A stretch of 64,000 nucleotides of DNA from Nitrososphaeria archaeon (lineage in GTDB: Archaea > Thermoproteota > Nitrososphaeria > JACIWG01), in the NCBI GenBank assembly GCA_963752255.1, contig CAVVXT010000012.1:96001-160000 (forward strand). Reading direction: 5' to 3'. Positions 48,482 to 55,705 of the stretch are shown piece after piece (position 1 is the stretch's first letter; each line of letters starts with the position of its first letter). A program made the translations under genes and the position numbers. Under the pieces are notes generated by a model, which was not told the DNA's origin, did no database searches, and worked only from the letters and a program-made list of their open reading frames with translations.

Positions 48482-48557
48482 AGCCCGGTGGTGCAGCGGT
48501 CAAGCACAGCGGCCTCTGGAGCCGCAAACACCAGTTCGAATCTGGTCCGGGCTACCA
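48482..48557 (+). tRNA. tRNA-Gln(CUG), CCA encoded
   Basis: AGCCCGG/CCGGGCT acceptor stem (A1:U72); GCGGC-CTCTGGA-GCCGC anticodon arm; GTTCGAAT T-loop. Confidence 0.96.
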
Positions 48558-49217
48558 CATCACCCACCGATGTTTTAGCGATAGATGCACTCCCATGTGC
48601 AGTTGGCTTTTAAAAGCTTAGGGTAAGCATCACCCTAAATCGCTGATTCTGCTCTGCCGGATTTAGCGATAGAACACATCTCAGGAAAGGGAGGCGTTAA
48701 AAAAATCGAGATAACACAATCGCTGATCTACCTATCGATACCCCAAAAAAATGAGGTTATTTAAAAAAAATTGAACTAACTTCAAACTGTTGCATCTCGG
48801 ACTAAAGCTCATGTGTCAGGTTACCCACGAATATAACCTACCAGTACCAGTTAAGACACTTTTTGACCTGTCTGGTATGAGTTTAGCGAGACGTGGAAAG
48901 GTTCACTTTAGTGAAAAACACCTATTCTGCTAGTATGGCGACCATTGAGAACAGGATTAATGTTTTCCTTTTATCTATCACCTTTTCCATGTCACCTCTT
49001 GTGATTGTGGATATATTGCAATTTATTAAAGAGTTTTTCAGAATCCAACCAAAATGTACTCCTAATTTTACACAAATTATACCAAATTTAAGATGAGGCA
49101 GTTTGTAGGCATCTTGTTCACTGAGGATCCAATACCACACTGGGAACATTCAAACAAACAAAAAATGCAACTACTTAAAACGGAAAGTTAGATTTAAAAA
49201 AAGGAGATAATGGCTAG

Positions 49218-49623
49218 TTGTGAATATTAAATACTCTTATAAGGGAGAAGGTTCTTTCTAATACTTAAGTGATAAAATGATCTTTATCAGTTTAATGAAG
49301 AACAGGCAGAAGCTAACAAAGGAATGTTTAGCTGAAAGCTCGAAGAACATGGAAAAAGACAAGAAAGAAGGAATAAAGTATCTTGGAATATATTATACAC
49401 TAGGCAGATACGACAACGTCGTCATAATGGAAGCGCCTGATGAAAAAACAGCTATGAAAGCCTCCATCAGAAAAGGAGAACATCTTGCAAGTGAGACGCT
49501 CGTCGCAGTACCCGCAGAAGAAGCCAGAAAACTCGTCGAATAATTAAGACACACCTTCACAACATTTTTTTGATATATTATAACGCATATGATATTTTTT
49601 GAGTTAGTTTATTCATAGCCTTT
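49218..49623 (+). repeat. ~400 bp direct repeat, copy 1 (promoter + GYD gene + 3' flank)
   Basis: Aligns with 53880-54275; the 59-nt upstream region has one mismatch. Confidence 0.92.
49277..49543 (+). CDS. GYD domain protein (copy A)
   Basis: YYTLGRYD...EAPDE...SETLVA family pattern. Confidence 0.88.
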   Translation: MIFISLMKNRQKLTKECLAESSKNMEKDKKEGIKYLGIYYTLGRYDNVVIMEAPDEKTAMKASIRKGEHLASETLVAVPAEEARKLVE

Positions 49624-49858
49624 GTTGGGTTTTTATTTGTAATTAATTATCTCTATTCTAATTTCACTACAGAACCACTCTCTAAGAGTTTGTGGAATTA
49701 TCTATATATTCGTCTCTCTATATGCCTTACGAGACCAATTTTGCAAAGTTCTTTTAGGAATATGATCTTTTAATCCAGATTTGATCAGATATTCTTTGGC
49801 TTCATTATTGAACACATTTCAAAACTATTTTTTCTTAGCTGCTGAGCTGCTGAATTAC

Positions 49859-51457
49859 TCAAAGGTCAGAGTCACCAGCAGACGAGTACCTTCTAAGAGC
49901 GTCCCTAACCACGCTTCTCATACTTGCAGATACGAATGGCTGGAACGGAGCAAGATATCTCACGCCCTTCGCCTTTGCAATCGCTTGGCCGTCATTTTCA
50001 CTCAGATATCCGGTAAGGAACGCTTCAGCGACAAGCTTCATCCCTTCCTCTTTAGCCGCGTCCTTTGCGGAATAGTAGAGAAACTCGGCGAGATCCCACG
50101 CCGTATCACCATTCTCCACGGCCTGCTCGAGGTCGAAAAGATAGATTTCATCTTTGCACACGATTGCGTTCTCTGCCTTCGTGTCCCCATATACCAAGCC
50201 AGCCTTGTGCAACTTGCCCAATATTTTGCCATACTTTACGATGTACTTCGTTCCGGTTCCTTTCCCATCCGTTACCTCCTCGACGAACTTAGAGAGTGAT
50301 ACCCCCTTGACATACGCGGTAACCAGAATCCTTTCGTGAAAGGCAATGCCGATTATATTATGAGTTCTTATTCCAAGTTTACGTACTCGCTTGACAGCCT
50401 CGTACTCTCTCTGGAGTCTTGAAAGTGGGCTCATGTCGAATTTCTTAGCAGTAAAAGCCCACAGGTTGAGCAATCCCCACTTTATGGACTTGAGATCAGG
50501 AAAGTGTTTGAGGATATAGTACATGTGCTTTCCATGACCCGAAATTTCGAGCAGCTCAGTGGAAGTGTAGATCTCTCCCTTTTTCTCCATTTTATGGCTA
50601 TAGGTTTTGCCGAAGCCGGACATCTGAGCAAGCTCTTCGGTTATCCTGTTTACATCATCAAAAAGAAGCCCTTCCTCAAGGCAAAGCAGCCTCTTCGGCC
50701 GGTTGAGTTCAACCAATGGTTCGACCGTTCCTCCCATCCTTCCCACTTTAGAGAGAGCTTCAGTCTTGACGATCTCGCTTCCCACTTCTCTAGTGAATCC
50801 ATGAATCGGGTACTGGGCAACGCCTGTACTCATGGGCGAAAACATTGAGACAATCTTGGAAAGTAAGCTCGCACTAGACATACTGCGGTTGACCCTGACC
50901 GATTCATTAGTACTTTCCAATATCCCTTGTGAAGCAAGAAATGCTGCCGCTTCTCGGAACCCACGAACCGTGAACTCCTTGTTCTCTTTCCTACGAGCAC
51001 ATGTATAAGTGTGATCGTAGCTGTAAATCACATGTGGGTAGACAAGAGCCCTTTTATGCAGCTTATCGAAAAGAAAGTATTCGTAAGGAATGATTAAGTT
51101 TGAAGAAAAGTCGCCGTAGTCTGAATGGATTTCGATCAGCTCTTCAGCTATGACCCTCTTTTTGTATTCGACTTCTACACTCCGCAAGAACTCTGGGTTA
51201 ACTATGGGTTCATAGATGTTCAAAAGCCTGCCTACGACGAACTCATCAAGAGAAGATTGCTTTGCATCTTCTCGCAGAGCGGTCTCCTCGACGATGATCG
51301 CTGATGACTGAATGGGCTCTTGGTTTTGTACGTACCTTATGCTTTCATCGAAGTCCTTCGCAACTATGATCATGTCATAACCAGAATCTTCTCTCGCATA
51401 GCCCGCAACCTTAGAGCCGTAAGCACAAATGGAAGATATCTTCTCTTTCCCGACCAA
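49859..51457 (-). CDS. Nucleotidyltransferase-like domain fused to a RIO/Bud32/Kdo-type kinase domain
   Basis: N-terminal YGSKVAGY...DSGYD; C-terminal LHKAGLVYGDTKAEN and FDLEQA. True start may be ~51514. Confidence 0.75.
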   Translation of the reverse strand: MVGKEKISSICAYGSKVAGYAREDSGYDMIIVAKDFDESIRYVQNQEPIQSSAIIVEETALREDAKQSSLDEFVVGRLLNIYEPIVNPEFLRSVEVEYKKRVIAEELIEIHSDYGDFSSNLIIPYEYFLFDKLHKRALVYPHVIYSYDHTYTCARRKENKEFTVRGFREAAAFLASQGILESTNESVRVNRSMSSASLLSKIVSMFSPMSTGVAQYPIHGFTREVGSEIVKTEALSKVGRMGGTVEPLVELNRPKRLLCLEEGLLFDDVNRITEELAQMSGFGKTYSHKMEKKGEIYTSTELLEISGHGKHMYYILKHFPDLKSIKWGLLNLWAFTAKKFDMSPLSRLQREYEAVKRVRKLGIRTHNIIGIAFHERILVTAYVKGVSLSKFVEEVTDGKGTGTKYIVKYGKILGKLHKAGLVYGDTKAENAIVCKDEIYLFDLEQAVENGDTAWDLAEFLYYSAKDAAKEEGMKLVAEAFLTGYLSENDGQAIAKAKGVRYLAPFQPFVSASMRSVVRDALRRYSSAGDSDL

Positions 51458-51948
51458 GGATTCGGCAAGGGTGCGCAGCTTAGATTTCTCCCTTGCAGTC
51501 AGCCTGCTCTTCAGGGTTCCATCTCCTCTTTTATCCCGAGCATGACCTAAGTCAGGACGGCCTATGATTTAAAAGTAGTTCGAGTGGGAAACAATTGGTC
51601 AAAATCATTGGTTGATAGAACGCCATCTTTCTGAAAAACTTTTCAAATCTAATAGGAATCGAATTTTTTTTCTTCTACGTTGTCTTCTTCGGTTTTTTAA
51701 TTGATGGCTATTTGGTTTTGAAGTGAGTTCCTAAATAGCTTAAGATTTTCTATTTGATCCCTCATGAAGATTTTCGCTTTGTTAGGATATGAGGAATTGC
51801 CGTGGTCGATCCAACCTCATGTGTCGATGTGGGCGCTGGCGAGCAGCAGGCTGGGCGCGCTCAACTTTATATTAGGTATTCTGCAAACGTAATATCCTTC
51901 ACTTCATTAACAAAAGGATTTATTAACCCCAAAGTGTATCCAATAATC

Positions 51949-52119
51949 ATGAGCAAAGAAGAAGTAAAGGGAAAAGGTAAACAAATCAAGGGAAAGATTC
52001 GTGAAGAAGTAGGCAAATTGACGGATAACAAAACGGAACAGCTTAAAGGTAAGATTGAGAAAGCTGAAGGGAAAGCCGAAGAGGAAATAGGGAAAGCAAA
52101 AAGAAAGGCAAAAGATTAA
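51949..52119 (+). CDS. CsbD-family stress protein
   Basis: KGKGKQIKGKIREEVGKLTDN...KG pattern; real start ATG 51949. Confidence 0.85.
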   Translation: MSKEEVKGKGKQIKGKIREEVGKLTDNKTEQLKGKIEKAEGKAEEEIGKAKRKAKD

Positions 52120-52211
52120 GAGAATGATCTCCCTCTGATCTGAGTTACTTTTATTTTTTTTCTCGAGTTGCTTATAGCTAAAACTTTTTCATTTGGACTG
52201 CCCTATAGCTT

Positions 52212-52355
52212 TCAATGTTGCGCATATTCTAGACCTCTCTTCCTTCTTGCTTTTTTCTTCTGTCCTTTGCTTCTTTCACCAAACCCGCTTCCAACTGTGG
52301 ATTTCCTTTGCTTGTCTTTTCCCACCGTATATTCTGTCTTCTTCTTCGCTGGCAT
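52212..52355 (-). CDS. Small basic hypothetical protein (47 aa)
   Basis: MPAKKKTEY...KKKARRKRGLEYAQH; TTTAAA box ~25-30 nt upstream. Confidence 0.5.
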   Translation of the reverse strand: MPAKKKTEYTVGKDKQRKSTVGSGFGERSKGQKKKARRKRGLEYAQH

Positions 52356-52980
52356 TAACCATCGGGACAGTATTCAAAGTTTAAAGATTTAATCTTAATA
52401 TTAACAGAGTACCCCTCTTTATTCAAAATAGTTACAGACTAAGGAAAATATCTATTTATATATTTTATAACAATACTTTCAGATTTGCCTTTTCATTATT
52501 TTTCCTTTAATATTGTAGGACGATAGTCATAAAATGTAATCAAAATCAGATATAAAAAATAGTTAAGAGAATCATTTGGCAACTTTTAATATTAAATTAC
52601 AAAAAAGCATAACCACATAGGAACGGTTTTTAGAGTAAACTTTATAGACTATATATATCATGGAAGAAATCTCTATTTAACTGGTGGATAAGGTCTCCTT
52701 TATATAGGAGGACCACTAATTTATTCTTGATAGATATGTGTCTTAACAGATTTTACACCGTTAAAGGAGGCTATCTCACTAAGAGCATAAGCTATCAATG
52801 TCGACTTAGAAGCTTTAGAAACAGCTAACTAATCTTAATTGTGATCCTAGCTCTTCCTCTCTTTGTATCATTGTTTTCAAGTTTATTTATTGAATCGAAC
52901 TGGTTATCTCCCAAGTGTGGAATCCTTAAAAAAGATACTATAAAGATCACAGGGACTGTCGCTGACGATATGTTCTTCGC

Positions 52981-53130
52981 TTAACCCAATACAACTAATA
53001 CAATGCCGCAGACAGTTCTCAGTAATCTTCCTACTTGAAAGTACCAGGGATGTTTGTCGTACCACCAGTACCAGATGTTTGAGGCTCCCTCTATTGCTAC
53101 GAAGGCTCCTATTCCCTTTATCCAGATCAT
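52981..53130 (-). CDS. Small membrane protein (49 aa)
   Basis: MIWIKGIGAFVAIEG...FQVGRLLRTVCGIVLVVLG; ATGA overlap with an upstream 29-aa ORF. Confidence 0.5.
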   Translation of the reverse strand: MIWIKGIGAFVAIEGASNIWYWWYDKHPWYFQVGRLLRTVCGIVLVVLG

Positions 53131-53879
53131 ACATTATCCCTCTTACAGCCCTTCTTTGGACAAACATTCTTTACCCAATATGCAACCTTGGACTTCATAA
53201 ACAGATCACATCTCATTTCCTTTTTAGAGCCCACAGATAACCATTTCTGAAGCATAATGCCATCTGTAGCATTGCATACTGAACAATATTAGCTAGACAC
53301 TTAACCTTATCAAGAATTCTTATATTTTCTATGAAGTGGATCTTAACGAAGAAGGTTTATTTTCGAAGTGTTTGTACTTTCTTCTAAAAACACTAAAGAT
53401 AATTTACATGAAGGACACAAGAGACTGTTATCAAACTGATAGACTTTTTTCTTAGCATTTTTTTATCAAAAAAATAGGGGTTAGAGAATATAGTGTTTCC
53501 TTCGTTTTTTCTCTTCTATTTTGGGCGTTAAACCCATTTCTTCTTCAATTGCGTCTACGTCTTTCCATGGCATTTTAAATCGCTGTGTCCACACTGCAAA
53601 GAGGACTGCTATTTACATGTTTTTTTTACATTTATTGATAAATTAATAAAAAAAATTGCACAATATAACTGATATAGAACAAGTAGCAGCTAACAGAGTT
53701 CTCCAAGAAGATTGGGCGAGTAAATCGAATTTTTATGAGGAAGATTTTGCGAATAAAATAGGTGCGACCTTGAGCAAACATCAATACTGGGATTGCACTT
53801 GGAATGGTTTACATATAGAATCTATTAGTTAATCTCGAGCCTTCTTTGTTTCACGTAGTAGAAGAGGATTTTTAATATA

Positions 53880-54275
53880 TTGTGAATGTTAAATACTCTT
53901 ATAAGGGAGAAGGTTCTTTCTAATACTTAAGTGATAAAATGATCTTTATCAGTTTAATGAAGTTCAGGCAGAAGCCTACAAAGGAATTGATTGCTGAAAA
54001 CGCGAAGCTCTATGAAAAAGAAAGGAAAGAAGGAGTAAAGAGTCTTGGAACATATTATACATTAGGCAGATACGACGCAGTCGGCATAATTGAAGCGCCT
54101 GATGAAAAAACAGCTTTGAAACTCGCGATGAGAAGAGGATTCCTCACAAGTGAGACGCTCGTCGCAGTACCCGCAGAAGAAGCCAGAAAACTCGTCGAAT
54201 AACCAAACACACCTTCACAACATTTTTTGTATATACTATAACGCTATTTTTTGAGTTAGTTTATCCCTAGCCTTT
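53880..54275 (+). repeat. ~400 bp direct repeat, copy 2
   Basis: Aligns with 49218-49623. Confidence 0.92.
53939..54202 (+). CDS. GYD domain protein (copy B)
   Basis: Paralog of 49277-49543; TLGRYD motif. Confidence 0.88.
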   Translation: MIFISLMKFRQKPTKELIAENAKLYEKERKEGVKSLGTYYTLGRYDAVGIIEAPDEKTALKLAMRRGFLTSETLVAVPAEEARKLVE

Positions 54276-54334
54276 TCTGTTATTTTCAAAAATAGGAGTA
54301 GGGGTTGTTGACCCCTTTAATGTTTCTATGGTGG

Positions 54335-54628
54335 TTATGGAAGTTTTGCGATTAGTTTCGCGCCTTCCTCCGCTGAAAAGGCTTTGAGGGTTATTGTGCG
54401 GACATTGCCTCCCATTGCGACAGCTAGCGAATTTATAAATGCGTTCTCATCGTTGTCGCTTTCTACTAATATCACCATGTCATATAGACCAAACGTGTAC
54501 CAAAAGCCTAGCCATTTTCCGCCTGTCTTTTCGACAAGGGCTTTTTCCTTTGCTACCCGCTTAGAAGATTCCTTGACATTCTTTATCCCTTGGTCCGTCC
54601 AATTTACGAGTTGAATAAAGTATGGCAT
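54335..54628 (-). CDS. GYD domain protein (divergent third paralog)
   Basis: WTDQGIKNVK, TFGLYD and GNVRTITLKAF canonical GYD pattern. Confidence 0.9.
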   Translation of the reverse strand: MPYFIQLVNWTDQGIKNVKESSKRVAKEKALVEKTGGKWLGFWYTFGLYDMVILVESDNDENAFINSLAVAMGGNVRTITLKAFSAEEGAKLIAKLP

Positions 54629-55067
54629 AGATTATTTTTGAAATATTCCTATATAAAGTTAACAGCCATCAACAGTCATCATCAACAATCAACATCCATC
54701 ATAAGCGTTCATCATCCGCCATCACTTGACCAATTGTCATAGTGGACAATAGGGTACCCTATGTCAACAAGGCAATAGTAGCGCTCAAAAGGGATAGGAG
54801 TATGACGGAGAGCACAGATATAATAAAGCAGCGTGAAAAGGACTTCGATTTAAGCCAGAGCAGGATTTGTGAGCTCATGTCTGATGAATATAAACGGGCA
54901 TACGGATATATTTGGGCACTAGCTTTTTTGTCAAGCCTTTTTACGCTTTATGACCCTTAATATTGTACTGGGGCATCATCCGATTTTTTTAGGCATTTTT
55001 TTGGAAACCTTATCTTATGGTATTCCTATAAGATTTAACGGAAACTTTTTGTCGCGAGCCGGATGTC

Positions 55068-55119
55068 TAACGTTATTATAAAATGTTTTTATATAACGTT
55101 TTTATATAATGTTATTATG
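55068..55119 (+). repeat. Four tandem 13-bp repeats (WAAYGTTWTTATR)
   Basis: TAACGTTATTATA / AAATGTTTTTATA / TAACGTTTTTATA / TAATGTTATTATG, ending in an ATG. Confidence 0.85.
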
Positions 55120-55224
55120 CCAAGAAAAAAAGGGGACGACGACGAGCTGACAAGGAAGGCGCTCGAGCTTAGAGGTAAGGGCTTGAGCTATAGGGAAATG
55201 ATAGGGCTTTATAGTAGAAGCTAG
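55117..55224 (+). pseudogene. Truncated HTH DNA-binding protein
   Basis: MPRKK...KALELRGKGLSYREM stops before the recognition helix. Confidence 0.55.
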
Positions 55225-55495
55225 TATCTTTGTCAATAGAAAGTCGGTAGATCATAGAGTTATCATACAAGAGCTCGTTGGACACTAAGATGGTCATGGG
55301 AAAAGAATTTATTGTCGAAACAACTTAAGTTACACAAAGAGGCTCTTGAGGTTTTTAAGAAAAGATTATAAAAAAAATCTATTTCAAAGAATGCAATCCA
55401 ACAATGCCTTAGGATAAGTTCTATCTATTGCCTCAGTTAATAGAAGTAAAGGTTAGCTTCTATAACAGATTTAACTTAACTTAATGTTTTATACT

Positions 55496-55705
55496 CTATT
55501 CTTTTGCGAGGATTACTTCCGTTGATTTTATTATTACCTTTACTTTATCTCCCTTCTTTATCTTAAGGTCTTCAACTGCCTCTTTGGTAATAACAGACGT
55601 AACTGTAGCGGGAGCTTCAACCTTCACCTTTACCTTTGCGGTAATTATACCTATTTCAATGTCTTCTACTTTTCCCTCAAACTGGTTTCTTGCGCTTAAT
55701 TTCAT
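55496..55705 (-). CDS. Molybdate-binding Mop/TOBE protein
   Basis: MKLSARNQ, SVITKEAVEDL and IIKSTEV motifs. Confidence 0.92.
   Translation of the reverse strand: MKLSARNQFEGKVEDIEIGIITAKVKVKVEAPATVTSVITKEAVEDLKIKKGDKVKVIIKSTEVILAKE

What the first reader, a model, noticed from the sequence alone, without database searches (positions are those of the whole stretch)
49218..54628. Duplicated GYD genes with extreme amino-acid-only divergence: candidate diversifying ligand-binding system
Codon-by-codon comparison of 49277-49543 with 53939-54202 gives 23 amino-acid replacements plus one codon indel. Only 2 of the 64 conserved-residue codons show a synonymous change (CTA/TTA, CTT/CTC). Eleven replaced codons differ at 2-3 bases (e.g. 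AAC/TTC, ATG/TAT, AAC/GCA). The 59-nt promoter has one mismatch, and codons 1-8 and 72-88 are identical. Variable sites show helical (17,18,21,22,24,25,28) and alternating-strand (33,35; 47,49,51) spacing, as expected for a pocket lining. Inference: strong diversifying selection, cassette-like gene conversion among a larger paralogue family, or a targeted mutagenesis mechanism acting on a small scaffold. A third, distant GYD gene is adjacent.
Basis: partly seen in the sequence, partly recalled or inferred. Interest (0 to 1): 0.82.

Follow-up and report, generated by a model that had tools for sequence, protein, structure and literature searches.

The report
Fast-evolving small GYD protein gene family
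An archaeon carries four scattered copies of a tiny gene for an 88-residue protein of unknown function, in which about a dozen residues are being changed by natural selection far faster than silent sites and are reshuffled between copies, as expected for a binding module whose specificity is being diversified.

Summary
Copies A (49277-49543) and B (53939-54202) differ by 23 replacements, 2 purely synonymous codons, 11 multi-base codons and one codon indel, and their ends are identical.

There are four copies in this genome, not two, plus three intact copies and one truncated copy in a sister species. Each is a separate unit of about 430 nt with its own conserved upstream and downstream flanks.

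Pairwise dN/dS for A/B is only 1.5-1.85. Codon site models on 13 close sequences are decisive: about 12% of codons have omega about 5.8 (LRT 88.9). This survives removing the indel region, giving each segment its own tree and using subsets. Null simulations gave LRT of 13.1 or less, and a sister clade gave 0.

Silent divergence equals the species background, while dN is about 4-10 times higher.

The copies are mosaics. I found no reverse transcriptase, no adenine bias and no silent cassettes, so targeted mutagenesis is not supported.

The predicted fold is a dimeric alpha+beta barrel. The predicted dimer interface is conserved, and the selected residues fall mostly off it, by inference between the sheet and the helices. 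The function is still unknown.

The parts
49218..49276 (+). Conserved upstream flank of GYD copy A (presumed archaeal promoter plus short 5' leader with GTGAT before the ATG)
   Evidence: One mismatch to 53880-53938. Conserved in all 4 copies of this genome and in 3 intact copies of the sister species. The promoter function is inferred, not tested.
49277..49543 (+). GYD copy A, 88 aa
   Evidence: ORF. Pfam GYD 44.2 bits against a cut-off of 31.4. AF2 pLDDT 94.3 with a beta-alpha-beta-beta-alpha-beta fold plus a C-terminal helix.
49544..49634 (+). Conserved 3' flank of copy A with two T-runs (terminator-like)
   Evidence: Direct-repeat families D3 and D4 match 54207-54286. Conserved across copies. 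Its last ~25 nt belong to a repeat also found without GYD elsewhere in the genome.
49229..49704 (+). 476-nt segment (the whole copy-A unit plus ~70 nt) that is absent from related populations
   Evidence: One contig in each of the 4 laid runs (2 studies) joins 49228 directly to 49705 (table 5).
53880..53938 (+). Conserved upstream flank of GYD copy B
53939..54202 (+). GYD copy B, 87 aa
   Evidence: ORF. Pfam GYD 46.7 bits. A contig of run X3 covers 53929-54187 with 1 differing letter (table 8, record 23).
54203..54286 (+). Conserved 3' flank of copy B
   Evidence: D3, D4.
54335..54628 (-). Third, distant canonical GYD gene (97 aa), tail-to-tail with copy B; not part of the fast-evolving subfamily
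   Evidence: Pfam GYD 78.3 bits. 40% identity to A over residues 18-87.

Best explanation
A and B are two of four dispersed, separately transcribed copies of a roughly 430-nt gene unit. The unit encodes an 88-residue GYD-family protein with a ferredoxin-like (dimeric alpha+beta barrel) fold.

One face of the sheet, the GxYD loop, strand 4 and the C-terminal helix form a conserved predicted homodimer interface. About 10-15 other positions are replaced far faster than silent sites: 7, 17, 22, 25, 47, 49, 62, 69, 70 and 72, with 9, 35, 38 and 51 close behind.

The mechanism is ordinary point substitution fixed by positive (diversifying) selection. The variants are then reshuffled between copies by gene conversion or recombination, giving mosaic genes. 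No dedicated mutagenesis machinery is involved.

Shown here: the excess of replacements, the mosaicism, the lack of RT, template or adenine bias, and the conserved predicted interface.

Inferred: the selected residues line the space between the sheet and the two helices, which is the cavity that relatives with this fold use for ligands (recalled, not tested). On that reading the four copies are a small repertoire of binding modules with different specificities. The ligand or partner is unknown.
For: Copies: there are four close copies in G000 and three intact plus one truncated copy in the same-genus genome G001.

Site models on 13 close sequences:
- M0 omega is 0.55.
- M1a lnL -1701.69 against M2a -1657.26 gives LRT 88.9 (p 5e-20), with omega2 5.85 on 12.2% of codons. 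Sites with posterior >0.88 are 7, 17, 22, 25, 47, 49, 62, 69, 70, 72.

Robustness:
- Without codons 66-72 the LRT is 54.8. Three segments, each on its own tree, give LRT 55.9, 13.9 and 7.7.
- The 7 sequences of the two genomes give LRT 55.9, the 4 paralogues of G000 alone 30.6, and the 10 closest 65.6.
- The per-site test with its own synonymous rate is positive at p<0.05 for 7, 17, 22, 47 and 72.

Controls with the same code:
- 8 of 8 M1a simulations gave LRT of 3.5 or less.
- 8 of 8 simulations with three segments on shuffled trees gave 13.1 or less, against 86.9 observed.
- A sister clade of 29 sequences gave omega 0.23 and LRT 0.

Background: 10 neighbouring genes between G000 and G001 have dS 0.09-0.22, dN 0.014-0.042 and omega 0.07-0.46. 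GYD pairs among the 10 close sequences have similar dS (0.10-0.26) but dN 0.085-0.21.

Mosaicism:
- PHI p = 0.001 (10 close sequences) and 0.034 (7 sequences).
- The nearest neighbour switches along every G000 copy. The B/G001_b run of 34 concordant polymorphic sites has global p 0.015.

No mutagenesis system:
- 0 RVT_1 hits in G000.
- Only the four full units were found by blastn, with no partial CDS copies.
- The template-A share of mismatches is 0.50 at most, against 0.39 A content.
- Multi-base codons fit the model.

Structure:
- AF2 pLDDT is 94.3. Foldseek best hits are muconolactone isomerases and other alpha+beta barrel proteins (E 2e-4, TM ~0.6).
- The homodimer model scores ipSAE 0.60, best of 3 controls 0.01. 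That mark was reached by 20 of 30 proteins solved as pairs of one chain and by 1 of 23 solved as single chains. The runs agree in at least 95% of contacts and the partner pLDDT is at least 89. Dimers of this fold are solved, so the pass may reflect likeness.
- Predicted interface positions are more conserved: mean entropy 0.66 against 1.22, Mann-Whitney p 0.005, 58 sequences.
- 8 of the 10 selected sites are outside the interface.
- Residues at the selected sites are mostly hydrophobic or small.
- Weak co-variation links sheet positions 7 and 38 with helix positions 21, 22, 25 and 63.
Against: - The gene-wide ratio is below 1 (M0 0.55), and only 11 of 78 pairs exceed 1. The claim therefore rests on site models.
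- Recombination is present and is known to inflate such tests: 2 of 8 extreme-recombination nulls passed 5.99.
- After correction for 88 tests, only site 7 survives the per-site test.
- Sites 69-72 sit next to an indel, where the alignment is uncertain.
- Six of the 13 sequences come from short metagenome contigs, which could be chimeric between paralogues.
- I had no coordinates, so the 'cavity' placement is inferred from strand alternation, the predicted interface and residue character.
- Two selected sites (17, 47) lie in the predicted interface.
- No ligand, partner, expression data or conserved neighbour gene was found.
- The codon-model code is my own, not PAML or HyPhy.
Confidence: 0.65

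Rival explanations
1. The variable residues form a protein-protein recognition surface rather than a small-molecule pocket. Candidates are partner choice among paralogues (hetero-oligomers), or an arms race with a viral or competitor protein.
For: - Replacement is still fast between the two closely related species. The best-matching pairs are B/b (dN 0.085), D/a (0.121) and C/c (0.148, omega 1.53), against background dN of 0.014-0.042. That fits an ongoing race better than an old split of ligand specificities.
- Copy A is present or absent among related populations.
- The A-B region has no colinear counterpart in G001 and lies near tRNA-Gln.
- Sites 17 and 47 touch the predicted dimer interface.
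Against: - There are no hits to defence (PADLOC) models, and only 2 weak PHROG hits for copy B (E 0.026 and 0.062), none for copy A or the third GYD gene.
- There is no informative viral structural match.
- Residues at the selected sites are mostly hydrophobic or small, not the charged and polar mix usual for exposed interfaces.
- The exposed charged helix positions (16, 20, 23, 26, 30, 31) are conserved in the 13 sequences (for 7 of them).
Confidence: 0.2
2. There is no positive selection. About 40% of the residues are simply unconstrained, and recombination, alignment error and chimeric contigs create the apparent omega above 1.
For: - M1a already assigns 41% of codons to omega = 1.
- Recombination is detected and inflates the LRT in 2 of 8 extreme nulls.
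- dN saturates at about 0.15-0.2 while dS runs from 0.1 to 0.9, as fast neutral sites also would.
Against: - The observed LRT of 87-89 compares with a maximum of 13.1 in recombination nulls.
- The signal persists with segment-specific trees, without the indel region, and in the four copies of one assembly alone.
- Among close pairs the variable codons have changed several-fold more than silent sites. Between A and B, 23 codons are replaced and 2 are silent-only.
- A sister clade with the same fold and the same code shows no signal.
Confidence: 0.07
3. A targeted hypermutation system (diversity-generating retroelement or similar), or programmed cassette replacement from silent donors, writes the variable codons.
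For: Variation is confined to a fixed set of codons inside an otherwise identical scaffold, and 11 of 23 replaced codons differ at 2-3 bases.
Against: - There are 0 RVT_1 hits in G000, which is 94.7% complete; the control search rang in 3 of 14 known genomes.
- No extra partial or silent copies of the coding region exist in the genome.
- Mismatches are not adenine-specific: 0.38 for A as template against B, maximum 0.50, composition 0.39.
- The multi-base codon count is as expected under selection alone.
- The genome is incomplete, so absence is not proven.
Confidence: 0.02
4. One or both copies are chimeric assembly artefacts of a metagenome-assembled genome.
For: The copies share identical stretches of up to 56 nt, which short-read assemblers can cross wrongly. 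P0005 is an exact join of the first 37 residues of L115 with residues 29-88 of L110, which could be a chimeric contig.
Against: - A and B lie 4.66 kb apart on one 292-kb contig of a 19-contig assembly.
- A contig from another run covers 53929-54187 (nearly all of B) with 1 differing letter. That run could be related to the source sample.
- Close variants of each copy type recur in G001 and in other metagenomes.
Confidence: 0.03

Closest known systems
Pfam GYD domain family (PF08734) / DUF3303, in the dimeric alpha+beta barrel group
   Same: Both copies pass the GYD gathering score. The G..YD loop is conserved: G43 and D46 are invariant and Y45 is at least 90% conserved in 109 sequences. Nearest Atlas clusters are archaeal GYD/DUF3303 proteins.
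   Different: The family has no assigned function. Searches for 'GYD domain', 'GYD family' and 'DUF3303' returned one listing that only mentions the name (seen as a listing only) or none. I found nothing in print on fast evolution or multi-copy units for it.
Muconolactone isomerase-like and other small alpha+beta barrel proteins (ClcF 3zo7/4fpi, Atu0297 2fiu, TTHA0845 2djw, SCO4226 4oi6, Lrp/AsnC ligand-binding domains)
   Same: Same predicted fold and size (Foldseek E 2e-4 to 2e-3, TM 0.5-0.64). Dimer predicted through the sheet.
   Different: Only 14-20% identity, with no sequence-level hit to any solved structure. Catalytic or ligand residues of those families were not compared. Membership is not claimed.
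Multigene families under diversifying selection with gene conversion (the general kind; examples recalled, not searched: immune receptors, venom peptides, chemoreceptors)
   Same: A conserved scaffold with a fixed set of codons at omega well above 1, and mosaic copies from exchange between paralogues.
   Different: The setting is an archaeon, with an 88-residue cytoplasmic-looking protein of unknown role and only four copies per genome. The variable residues appear buried rather than on an exposed loop (inference).
Diversity-generating retroelements
   Same: Variation is confined to defined codons of a small binding scaffold.
   Different: No reverse transcriptase, template repeat or adenine-specific pattern was found.

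Membership tests
GYD (PF08734) | Score above Pfam's gathering threshold | tested here: met
   A 44.2 bits, B 46.7 bits and the third gene 78.3 bits, against a cut-off of 31.4. The own-genome scan finds 5 loci over the cut-off.
GYD (PF08734) | Conserved G-x-Y-D motif in the loop between strands 2 and 3 | tested here: met
   LGRYD at 42-46. G43 and D46 are invariant and Y45 is at least 90% conserved in the 109-sequence alignment.
Dimeric alpha+beta barrel fold | beta-alpha-beta-beta-alpha-beta topology and a dimer through the open face of the sheet | tested here: met
   Prediction only. AF2 elements are E2-9, H15-30, E34-40, E47-52, H56-65, E70-77. The homodimer model scores 0.60 against a best control of 0.01.
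Muconolactone isomerase family | Sequence-family match and catalytic residues | tested here: not met
   There is no Pfam or NCBIfam hit to that family and no PDB sequence hit below E 0.1. The resemblance is fold only. Catalytic residues were not compared.
Diversity-generating retroelement target | Reverse transcriptase in the genome | tested here: not met
   0 matches to PF00078 in G000 (94.7% complete).
Diversity-generating retroelement target | Template repeat whose adenines correspond to the variable positions | tested here: not met
   No extra copy of the coding region exists. The template-A share of mismatches is 0.18-0.50 against 0.39 A content.
Integron-type gene cassette (considered because the unit is discrete and indel-polymorphic) | Integrase next to an array of cassettes, each ending in a folded recombination site | tested here: inconclusive
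   The tyrosine recombinase hits lie on contigs C3, C5, C8 and C19, with none on C12, where the window lies. The copies are dispersed, not arrayed, and carry their own upstream flank. The 3' repeat also follows unrelated genes. The structure of that repeat was not tested.

The most novel reading that the evidence does not exclude
The GYD units are a mobile, presence/absence-polymorphic repertoire of binder genes. Each is a self-contained cassette (promoter, 88-codon scaffold, shared 3' module) that is copied to new sites, swaps segments with its siblings, and has its internal cavity reshaped under continuing selection. On this reading it is an archaeal, mutagenesis-free counterpart of variable receptor families, perhaps sensing or sequestering changing small molecules or viral products in peat and sediment communities.
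Probability: 0.2. Interest if true: 0.75.

Novelty: new member of a known kind. Interest (0 to 1): 0.5.

Why it matters
GYD/DUF3303 is a widespread family of small archaeal and bacterial proteins with no known function. A strong, site-specific signature of positive selection on a fixed set of residues, set against a conserved predicted dimer interface, points to which residues carry specificity. It also gives a direct experimental handle: compare what the four natural variants bind. Clear cases of diversifying selection plus inter-paralogue exchange are rarely documented in archaea. My searches found none for this family.

Tried and rejected
- DGR or targeted mutagenesis was rejected.
- Silent donor cassettes: none were found by blastn of the four units against the genome.
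- Sequence search of solved structures gave nothing below E 0.1.
- PADLOC and NCBIfam gave no hit for the GYD proteins. PHROGs gave 2 weak hits for copy B (E 0.026 and 0.062) and none for copy A or the third GYD gene.
- The viral structure library gave one uninformative hit at E 7e-4.
- Rfam on 48500-55500 gave only the tRNA and two sub-threshold C/D-box-like hits at 54661-54719.
- Conserved neighbours: the four copies share none. In 179 loci the only recurrent neighbour frame that is not an artefact was an aldo-keto reductase, in 7 loci.
- Expression: no RNA holder was listed by the look-up of sequencing runs, so nothing can be said.
- The A/B deficit of silent-only codons is 2 observed against 9.9 expected under M2a (P 0.002). 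The pair was picked after the fact from 78, so I do not rest on it.
- The joint 49592->54248 appears in one contig with only 28 letters on its shorter side. It is too weak to claim an A/B hybrid or a deletion.
- Co-variation (MI with APC, 227 sequences, Neff 84) is low-powered and partly tracks clades. I use it only as a weak hint.
- I could not obtain model coordinates, so no cavity or solvent-accessibility calculation was possible.
- Papers: I saw only search listings and abstract starts. No paper was read, and supplements were not consulted.
- The remarks on where ligands bind in alpha+beta barrel proteins, on integron cassettes and on eukaryotic examples of diversifying families are recalled, not from any call.

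Full report
**What is there**

Window 49277-49543 (+) and 53939-54202 (+) are open frames of 88 and 87 codons. Both pass Pfam's GYD threshold at 44.2 and 46.7 bits against 31.4. The neighbouring frame 54335-54628 (-) is a canonical GYD protein at 78.3 bits.

- 62 identical codons, 2 synonymous-only codons and 23 replacements;
- 11 replacements with 2-3 base changes, and one codon indel;
- one mismatch in the 59 nt upstream;
- identical codons 1-8 and a 56-nt identical 3' end.

The formal pairwise ratio is modest: NG86 dN 0.18, dS 0.10-0.12, ratio 1.5-1.85 by gap placement.

The genome (2.1 Mb, 19 contigs, 94.7% complete) holds four close copies. A and B are on the window's contig, C is at C6:32051-32314 (-) and D is at C3:68307-68570 (-). 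They are 70-83% identical to A as proteins.

A same-genus genome (G001) has three intact copies and one truncated copy. At E <= 1e-10, 9 of 61 genomes searched (G000 included) have a match.

Each copy is a discrete unit of about 430 nt:
- a conserved stretch of about 60-70 nt upstream, with an A/T-rich box and GTGAT before the ATG (the promoter and leader roles are inferred);
- the coding frame;
- a conserved 3' flank of about 90 nt with two T-runs.

The four copies have no neighbour gene in common. In 179 fetched loci no neighbour recurs, apart from an aldo-keto reductase in 7.

**How fast, compared with what**

Ten ordinary genes around the locus differ between G000 and G001 by dS 0.09-0.22, dN 0.014-0.042 and omega 0.07-0.46. 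One further frame in that table, 49781-50296, is antisense to the kinase gene, and I dropped it. Flanking DNA is 93-95% identical, while the GYD units are only 84-89% identical.

Among 13 close sequences I compared all 78 pairs. The set is 4 copies from G000, 3 from G001 and 6 from metagenome contigs L110, L113 and L115-L118. These are all the sequences I had at 70% identity or more to A. dN sits at 0.085-0.23 whether dS is 0.10 or 1.0, and 11 of 78 pairs have a ratio above 1.

So silent divergence is ordinary for this pair of species. The amino-acid divergence is what is out of scale, and it saturates quickly on a limited set of sites.

**Site models**

I wrote a Goldman-Yang-type codon likelihood (F3x4, own code) and fitted it on an IQ-TREE topology.
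- M0 gives omega 0.55.
- M1a gives lnL -1701.69 and M2a -1657.26, so LRT 88.9 (p 5e-20). Omega is 5.85 on 12.2% of codons.
- Posterior above 0.88 is reached at sites 7, 17, 22, 25, 47, 49, 62, 69, 70 and 72.

The result stays under each check:
- removing codons 66-72 around the indel gives LRT 54.8;
- three segments, each with its own tree, give LRT 55.9, 13.9 and 7.7;
- the seven sequences of the two genomes give 55.9, the four G000 copies alone 30.6, and the ten closest 65.6.

A per-site test with a free synonymous rate is positive at p<0.05 for 7, 17, 22, 47 and 72, and at p<0.1 for 29 and 62. It marks 24 sites as negatively selected. Only site 7 would survive a Bonferroni correction.

Controls with the same code:
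- Eight data sets simulated under M1a gave LRT 0.16-3.5.
- Eight data sets simulated with three segments on shuffled trees (extreme recombination) gave 0-13.1. Two of those eight exceeded 5.99.
- The real data gave 86.9 with the same quick procedure.
- A sister clade of 29 sequences (the 'PREEA' clade from metagenomes) gave omega 0.23 and LRT 0.

**Mosaicism**

The PHI test gives p = 0.001 for the ten closest sequences, 0.034 for the seven from the two genomes and 0.18 for all 13.

Along each G000 unit the nearest relative changes:
- A is closest to B in the upstream flank and first codons, to C in nt 1-85, and to L110 or G001_a further on.
- B is closest to G001_b over nt -4 to 175, with 0-7 differences per 60 nt, then to L113.

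A runs test gives pairwise p of 0.001-0.005 for several pairs. Only B/G001_b is significant globally (p 0.015).

At the protein level, P0005 equals L115 in residues 1-37 and L110 in residues 29-88. This is either a true recombinant or a chimeric short contig.

**What does not drive the variation**

- There is no reverse transcriptase. PF00078 gave no hit, while the control search rang in 3 of 14 known genomes.
- There is no further full or partial copy of the coding region that could serve as template or donor.
- There is no adenine-specific mismatch pattern. The share of mismatches with A in the putative template is 0.38 for A against B and at most 0.50 for any pair, against 0.39 A in the coding strand.
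- The 11 multi-base codons are what the fitted M2a model predicts for the A-B pair (mean 8.8, P(>=11) = 0.26).
- The two silent-only codons are fewer than predicted (mean 9.9, P(<=2) = 0.002). This fits recent homogenisation of the ends of A and B, but the pair was chosen after the fact.

**Structure**

With a 109-row alignment, AlphaFold2 gives pLDDT 94.3 and the order E2-9, H15-30, E34-40, E47-52, H56-65, E70-77, H80-84.

Foldseek's best PDB matches are 5-chloromuconolactone isomerase ClcF (E 2e-4, TM about 0.6), then Atu0297, TTHA0845, SCO4226 and Lrp/AsnC ligand-binding domains. No solved structure matches by sequence.

A two-copy complex prediction scored ipSAE 0.60, with the best of 3 controls at 0.01. 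That mark was reached by 20 of 30 proteins solved as pairs of one chain and by 1 of 23 solved as single chains. The runs agree in at least 95% of contacts and the partner pLDDT is at least 89. Dimers of this fold are solved, so the pass may reflect likeness.

The predicted interface is residues 2, 4, 6, 13-15, 17-18, 37-45, 47-48, 50, 73, 75-80, 83-84 and 87-88. In 58 sequences carrying the 'PAEEARK' or 'PAVEARK' motif, these 31 positions are more conserved than the other 57 (mean entropy 0.66 against 1.22, Mann-Whitney p 0.005).

Eight of the ten selected sites are outside the interface. Strand positions 2/4/6, 48/50 and 73/75/77 face the partner, so the alternating positions 3/5/7/9, 49/51 and 72/74/76 must face the helices. 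These include selected sites 7, 49 and 72.

Residues seen at the selected sites are mostly hydrophobic or small, for example 7: ACFIMVW, 25: FGILMY, 49: AGNSV and 62: ALSV. The charged helix positions 16, 20, 23, 26, 30 and 31 are conserved. Weak co-variation links 7 and 38 with 21, 22, 25 and 63.

I therefore infer that the variable residues line the space between sheet and helices. I had no coordinates to verify this.

**Independent sequence support and unit turnover**

Contigs of four soil and peat runs (two studies, one of which may be the source of the assembly) were laid on 49100-54700.
- One contig of X3 covers 53929-54187 (copy B) with one differing letter.
- In each of the four runs, one contig joins 49228 directly to 49705. 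The 476 nt that hold copy A are therefore absent in related populations.

The stretch from about 49150 to 55190 has no colinear counterpart in G001, and it begins about 600 nt after tRNA-Gln at 48482-48557.

The last ~25 nt of the GYD 3' flank, together with about 65 further nt, form a repeat. The repeat also occurs without GYD at five or more other places in the genome. Three of these lie 12-43 nt after the stop of unrelated genes. It looks like a shared 3'-end module.

**Reading**

The best-supported mechanism is positive diversifying selection on a fixed set of residues of a small dimeric scaffold, with exchange of segments between copies and no dedicated mutagenesis. I put 0.65 on this evolutionary mechanism.

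Whether the variable residues bind a small molecule in a cavity (my preferred reading) or a protein partner (rival, 0.2) cannot be decided here.

Neutral drift plus artefacts (0.07), assembly error (0.03) and targeted mutagenesis (0.02) are unlikely.

**Comparison and novelty**

The proteins are members of Pfam GYD. They share a fold, but not family membership, with muconolactone isomerase-like proteins.

The phenomenon, a paralogue family with omega well above 1 at defined codons plus gene conversion, is a known kind. It is new for this family and, as far as my searches show, for such small archaeal proteins (listings only).

I rate it a new member of a known kind, with interest 0.5. The signal is strong and clean and makes an unknown family testable, but the function remains open.

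Noticed in passing
G000 contigs: C6:31880-31978, C3:68140-68235 (after GYD C and D); C10:149746-149840, C10:39073-39142, C3:166003-166072, C3:52476-52553, C19:316071-316133; partial copies C5:16373-16404 and C5:17435-17478: A 70-95-nt repeat that starts with the last ~25 nt of the GYD 3' flank. Three solo copies lie 12-43 nt after the stop of unrelated same-strand ORFs. Two lie within about 2 kb of tyrosine-recombinase hits (C3:168027, C5:17659). It may be a shared terminator/3'-end module or a recombination site.
   Followed up: partly
window 49229-49704: Contigs in 4 of 4 laid runs (2 studies) join 49228 to 49705, so the copy-A unit is absent in related populations. Imperfect direct repeats sit near the two ends: TTGTGAATATT at 49218-49228 and TTGTGGAATTAT at 49690-49701.
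   Followed up: partly
window 48482-55190: tRNA-Gln(CTG) lies at 48482-48557. The ~6 kb from about 49150 to 55190 (GYD A, kinase fusion, CsbD-like gene, GYD B, third GYD) has no colinear counterpart in the same-genus genome G001, where the kinase gene sits on another contig. This looks like an island-like variable region.
   Followed up: partly
window 49859-51457 (-): A 532-aa fusion of a weak nucleotidyltransferase-like N-terminus (Polbeta, E 0.0037, below cut-off) with a RIO/Bud32-like kinase domain. There is weak similarity to PD-T4-6 kinase models of PADLOC (E 6e-7). It is 94% identical in DNA to a G001 gene on another contig.
   Followed up: partly
window 52665-52848 and 52356-52750: A short repeat with eight or more partial matches across G001 contigs. 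One X1 contig skips 52356-52750, and several contigs have loose ends at 52667 and 52717-52721. It looks like a small insertion-type repeat.
   Followed up: no
L019 (G001:C5:47861-48016): The fourth GYD copy of G001 is truncated. Its frame departs from the family after about residue 50 and ends at 57 aa.
   Followed up: no
P0003, P0052 (gene calls for G000 copies C and B): Public gene calls start copies C and B at Met7 (82 and 81 aa). The conserved MIFISL strand 1 and the GTGAT before the first ATG argue for Met1.
   Followed up: partly
window 54661-54719 (-): Two overlapping sub-threshold matches to archaeal C/D-box sRNA models: sR41 at 21.7 bits against 54, and sR5 at 21.4 bits against 40.
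   Followed up: no
window 51949-52119 (+): A CsbD-like small stress protein (56 aa, Pfam 48.2 bits against a cut-off of 40) lies between the two GYD copies.
   Followed up: no
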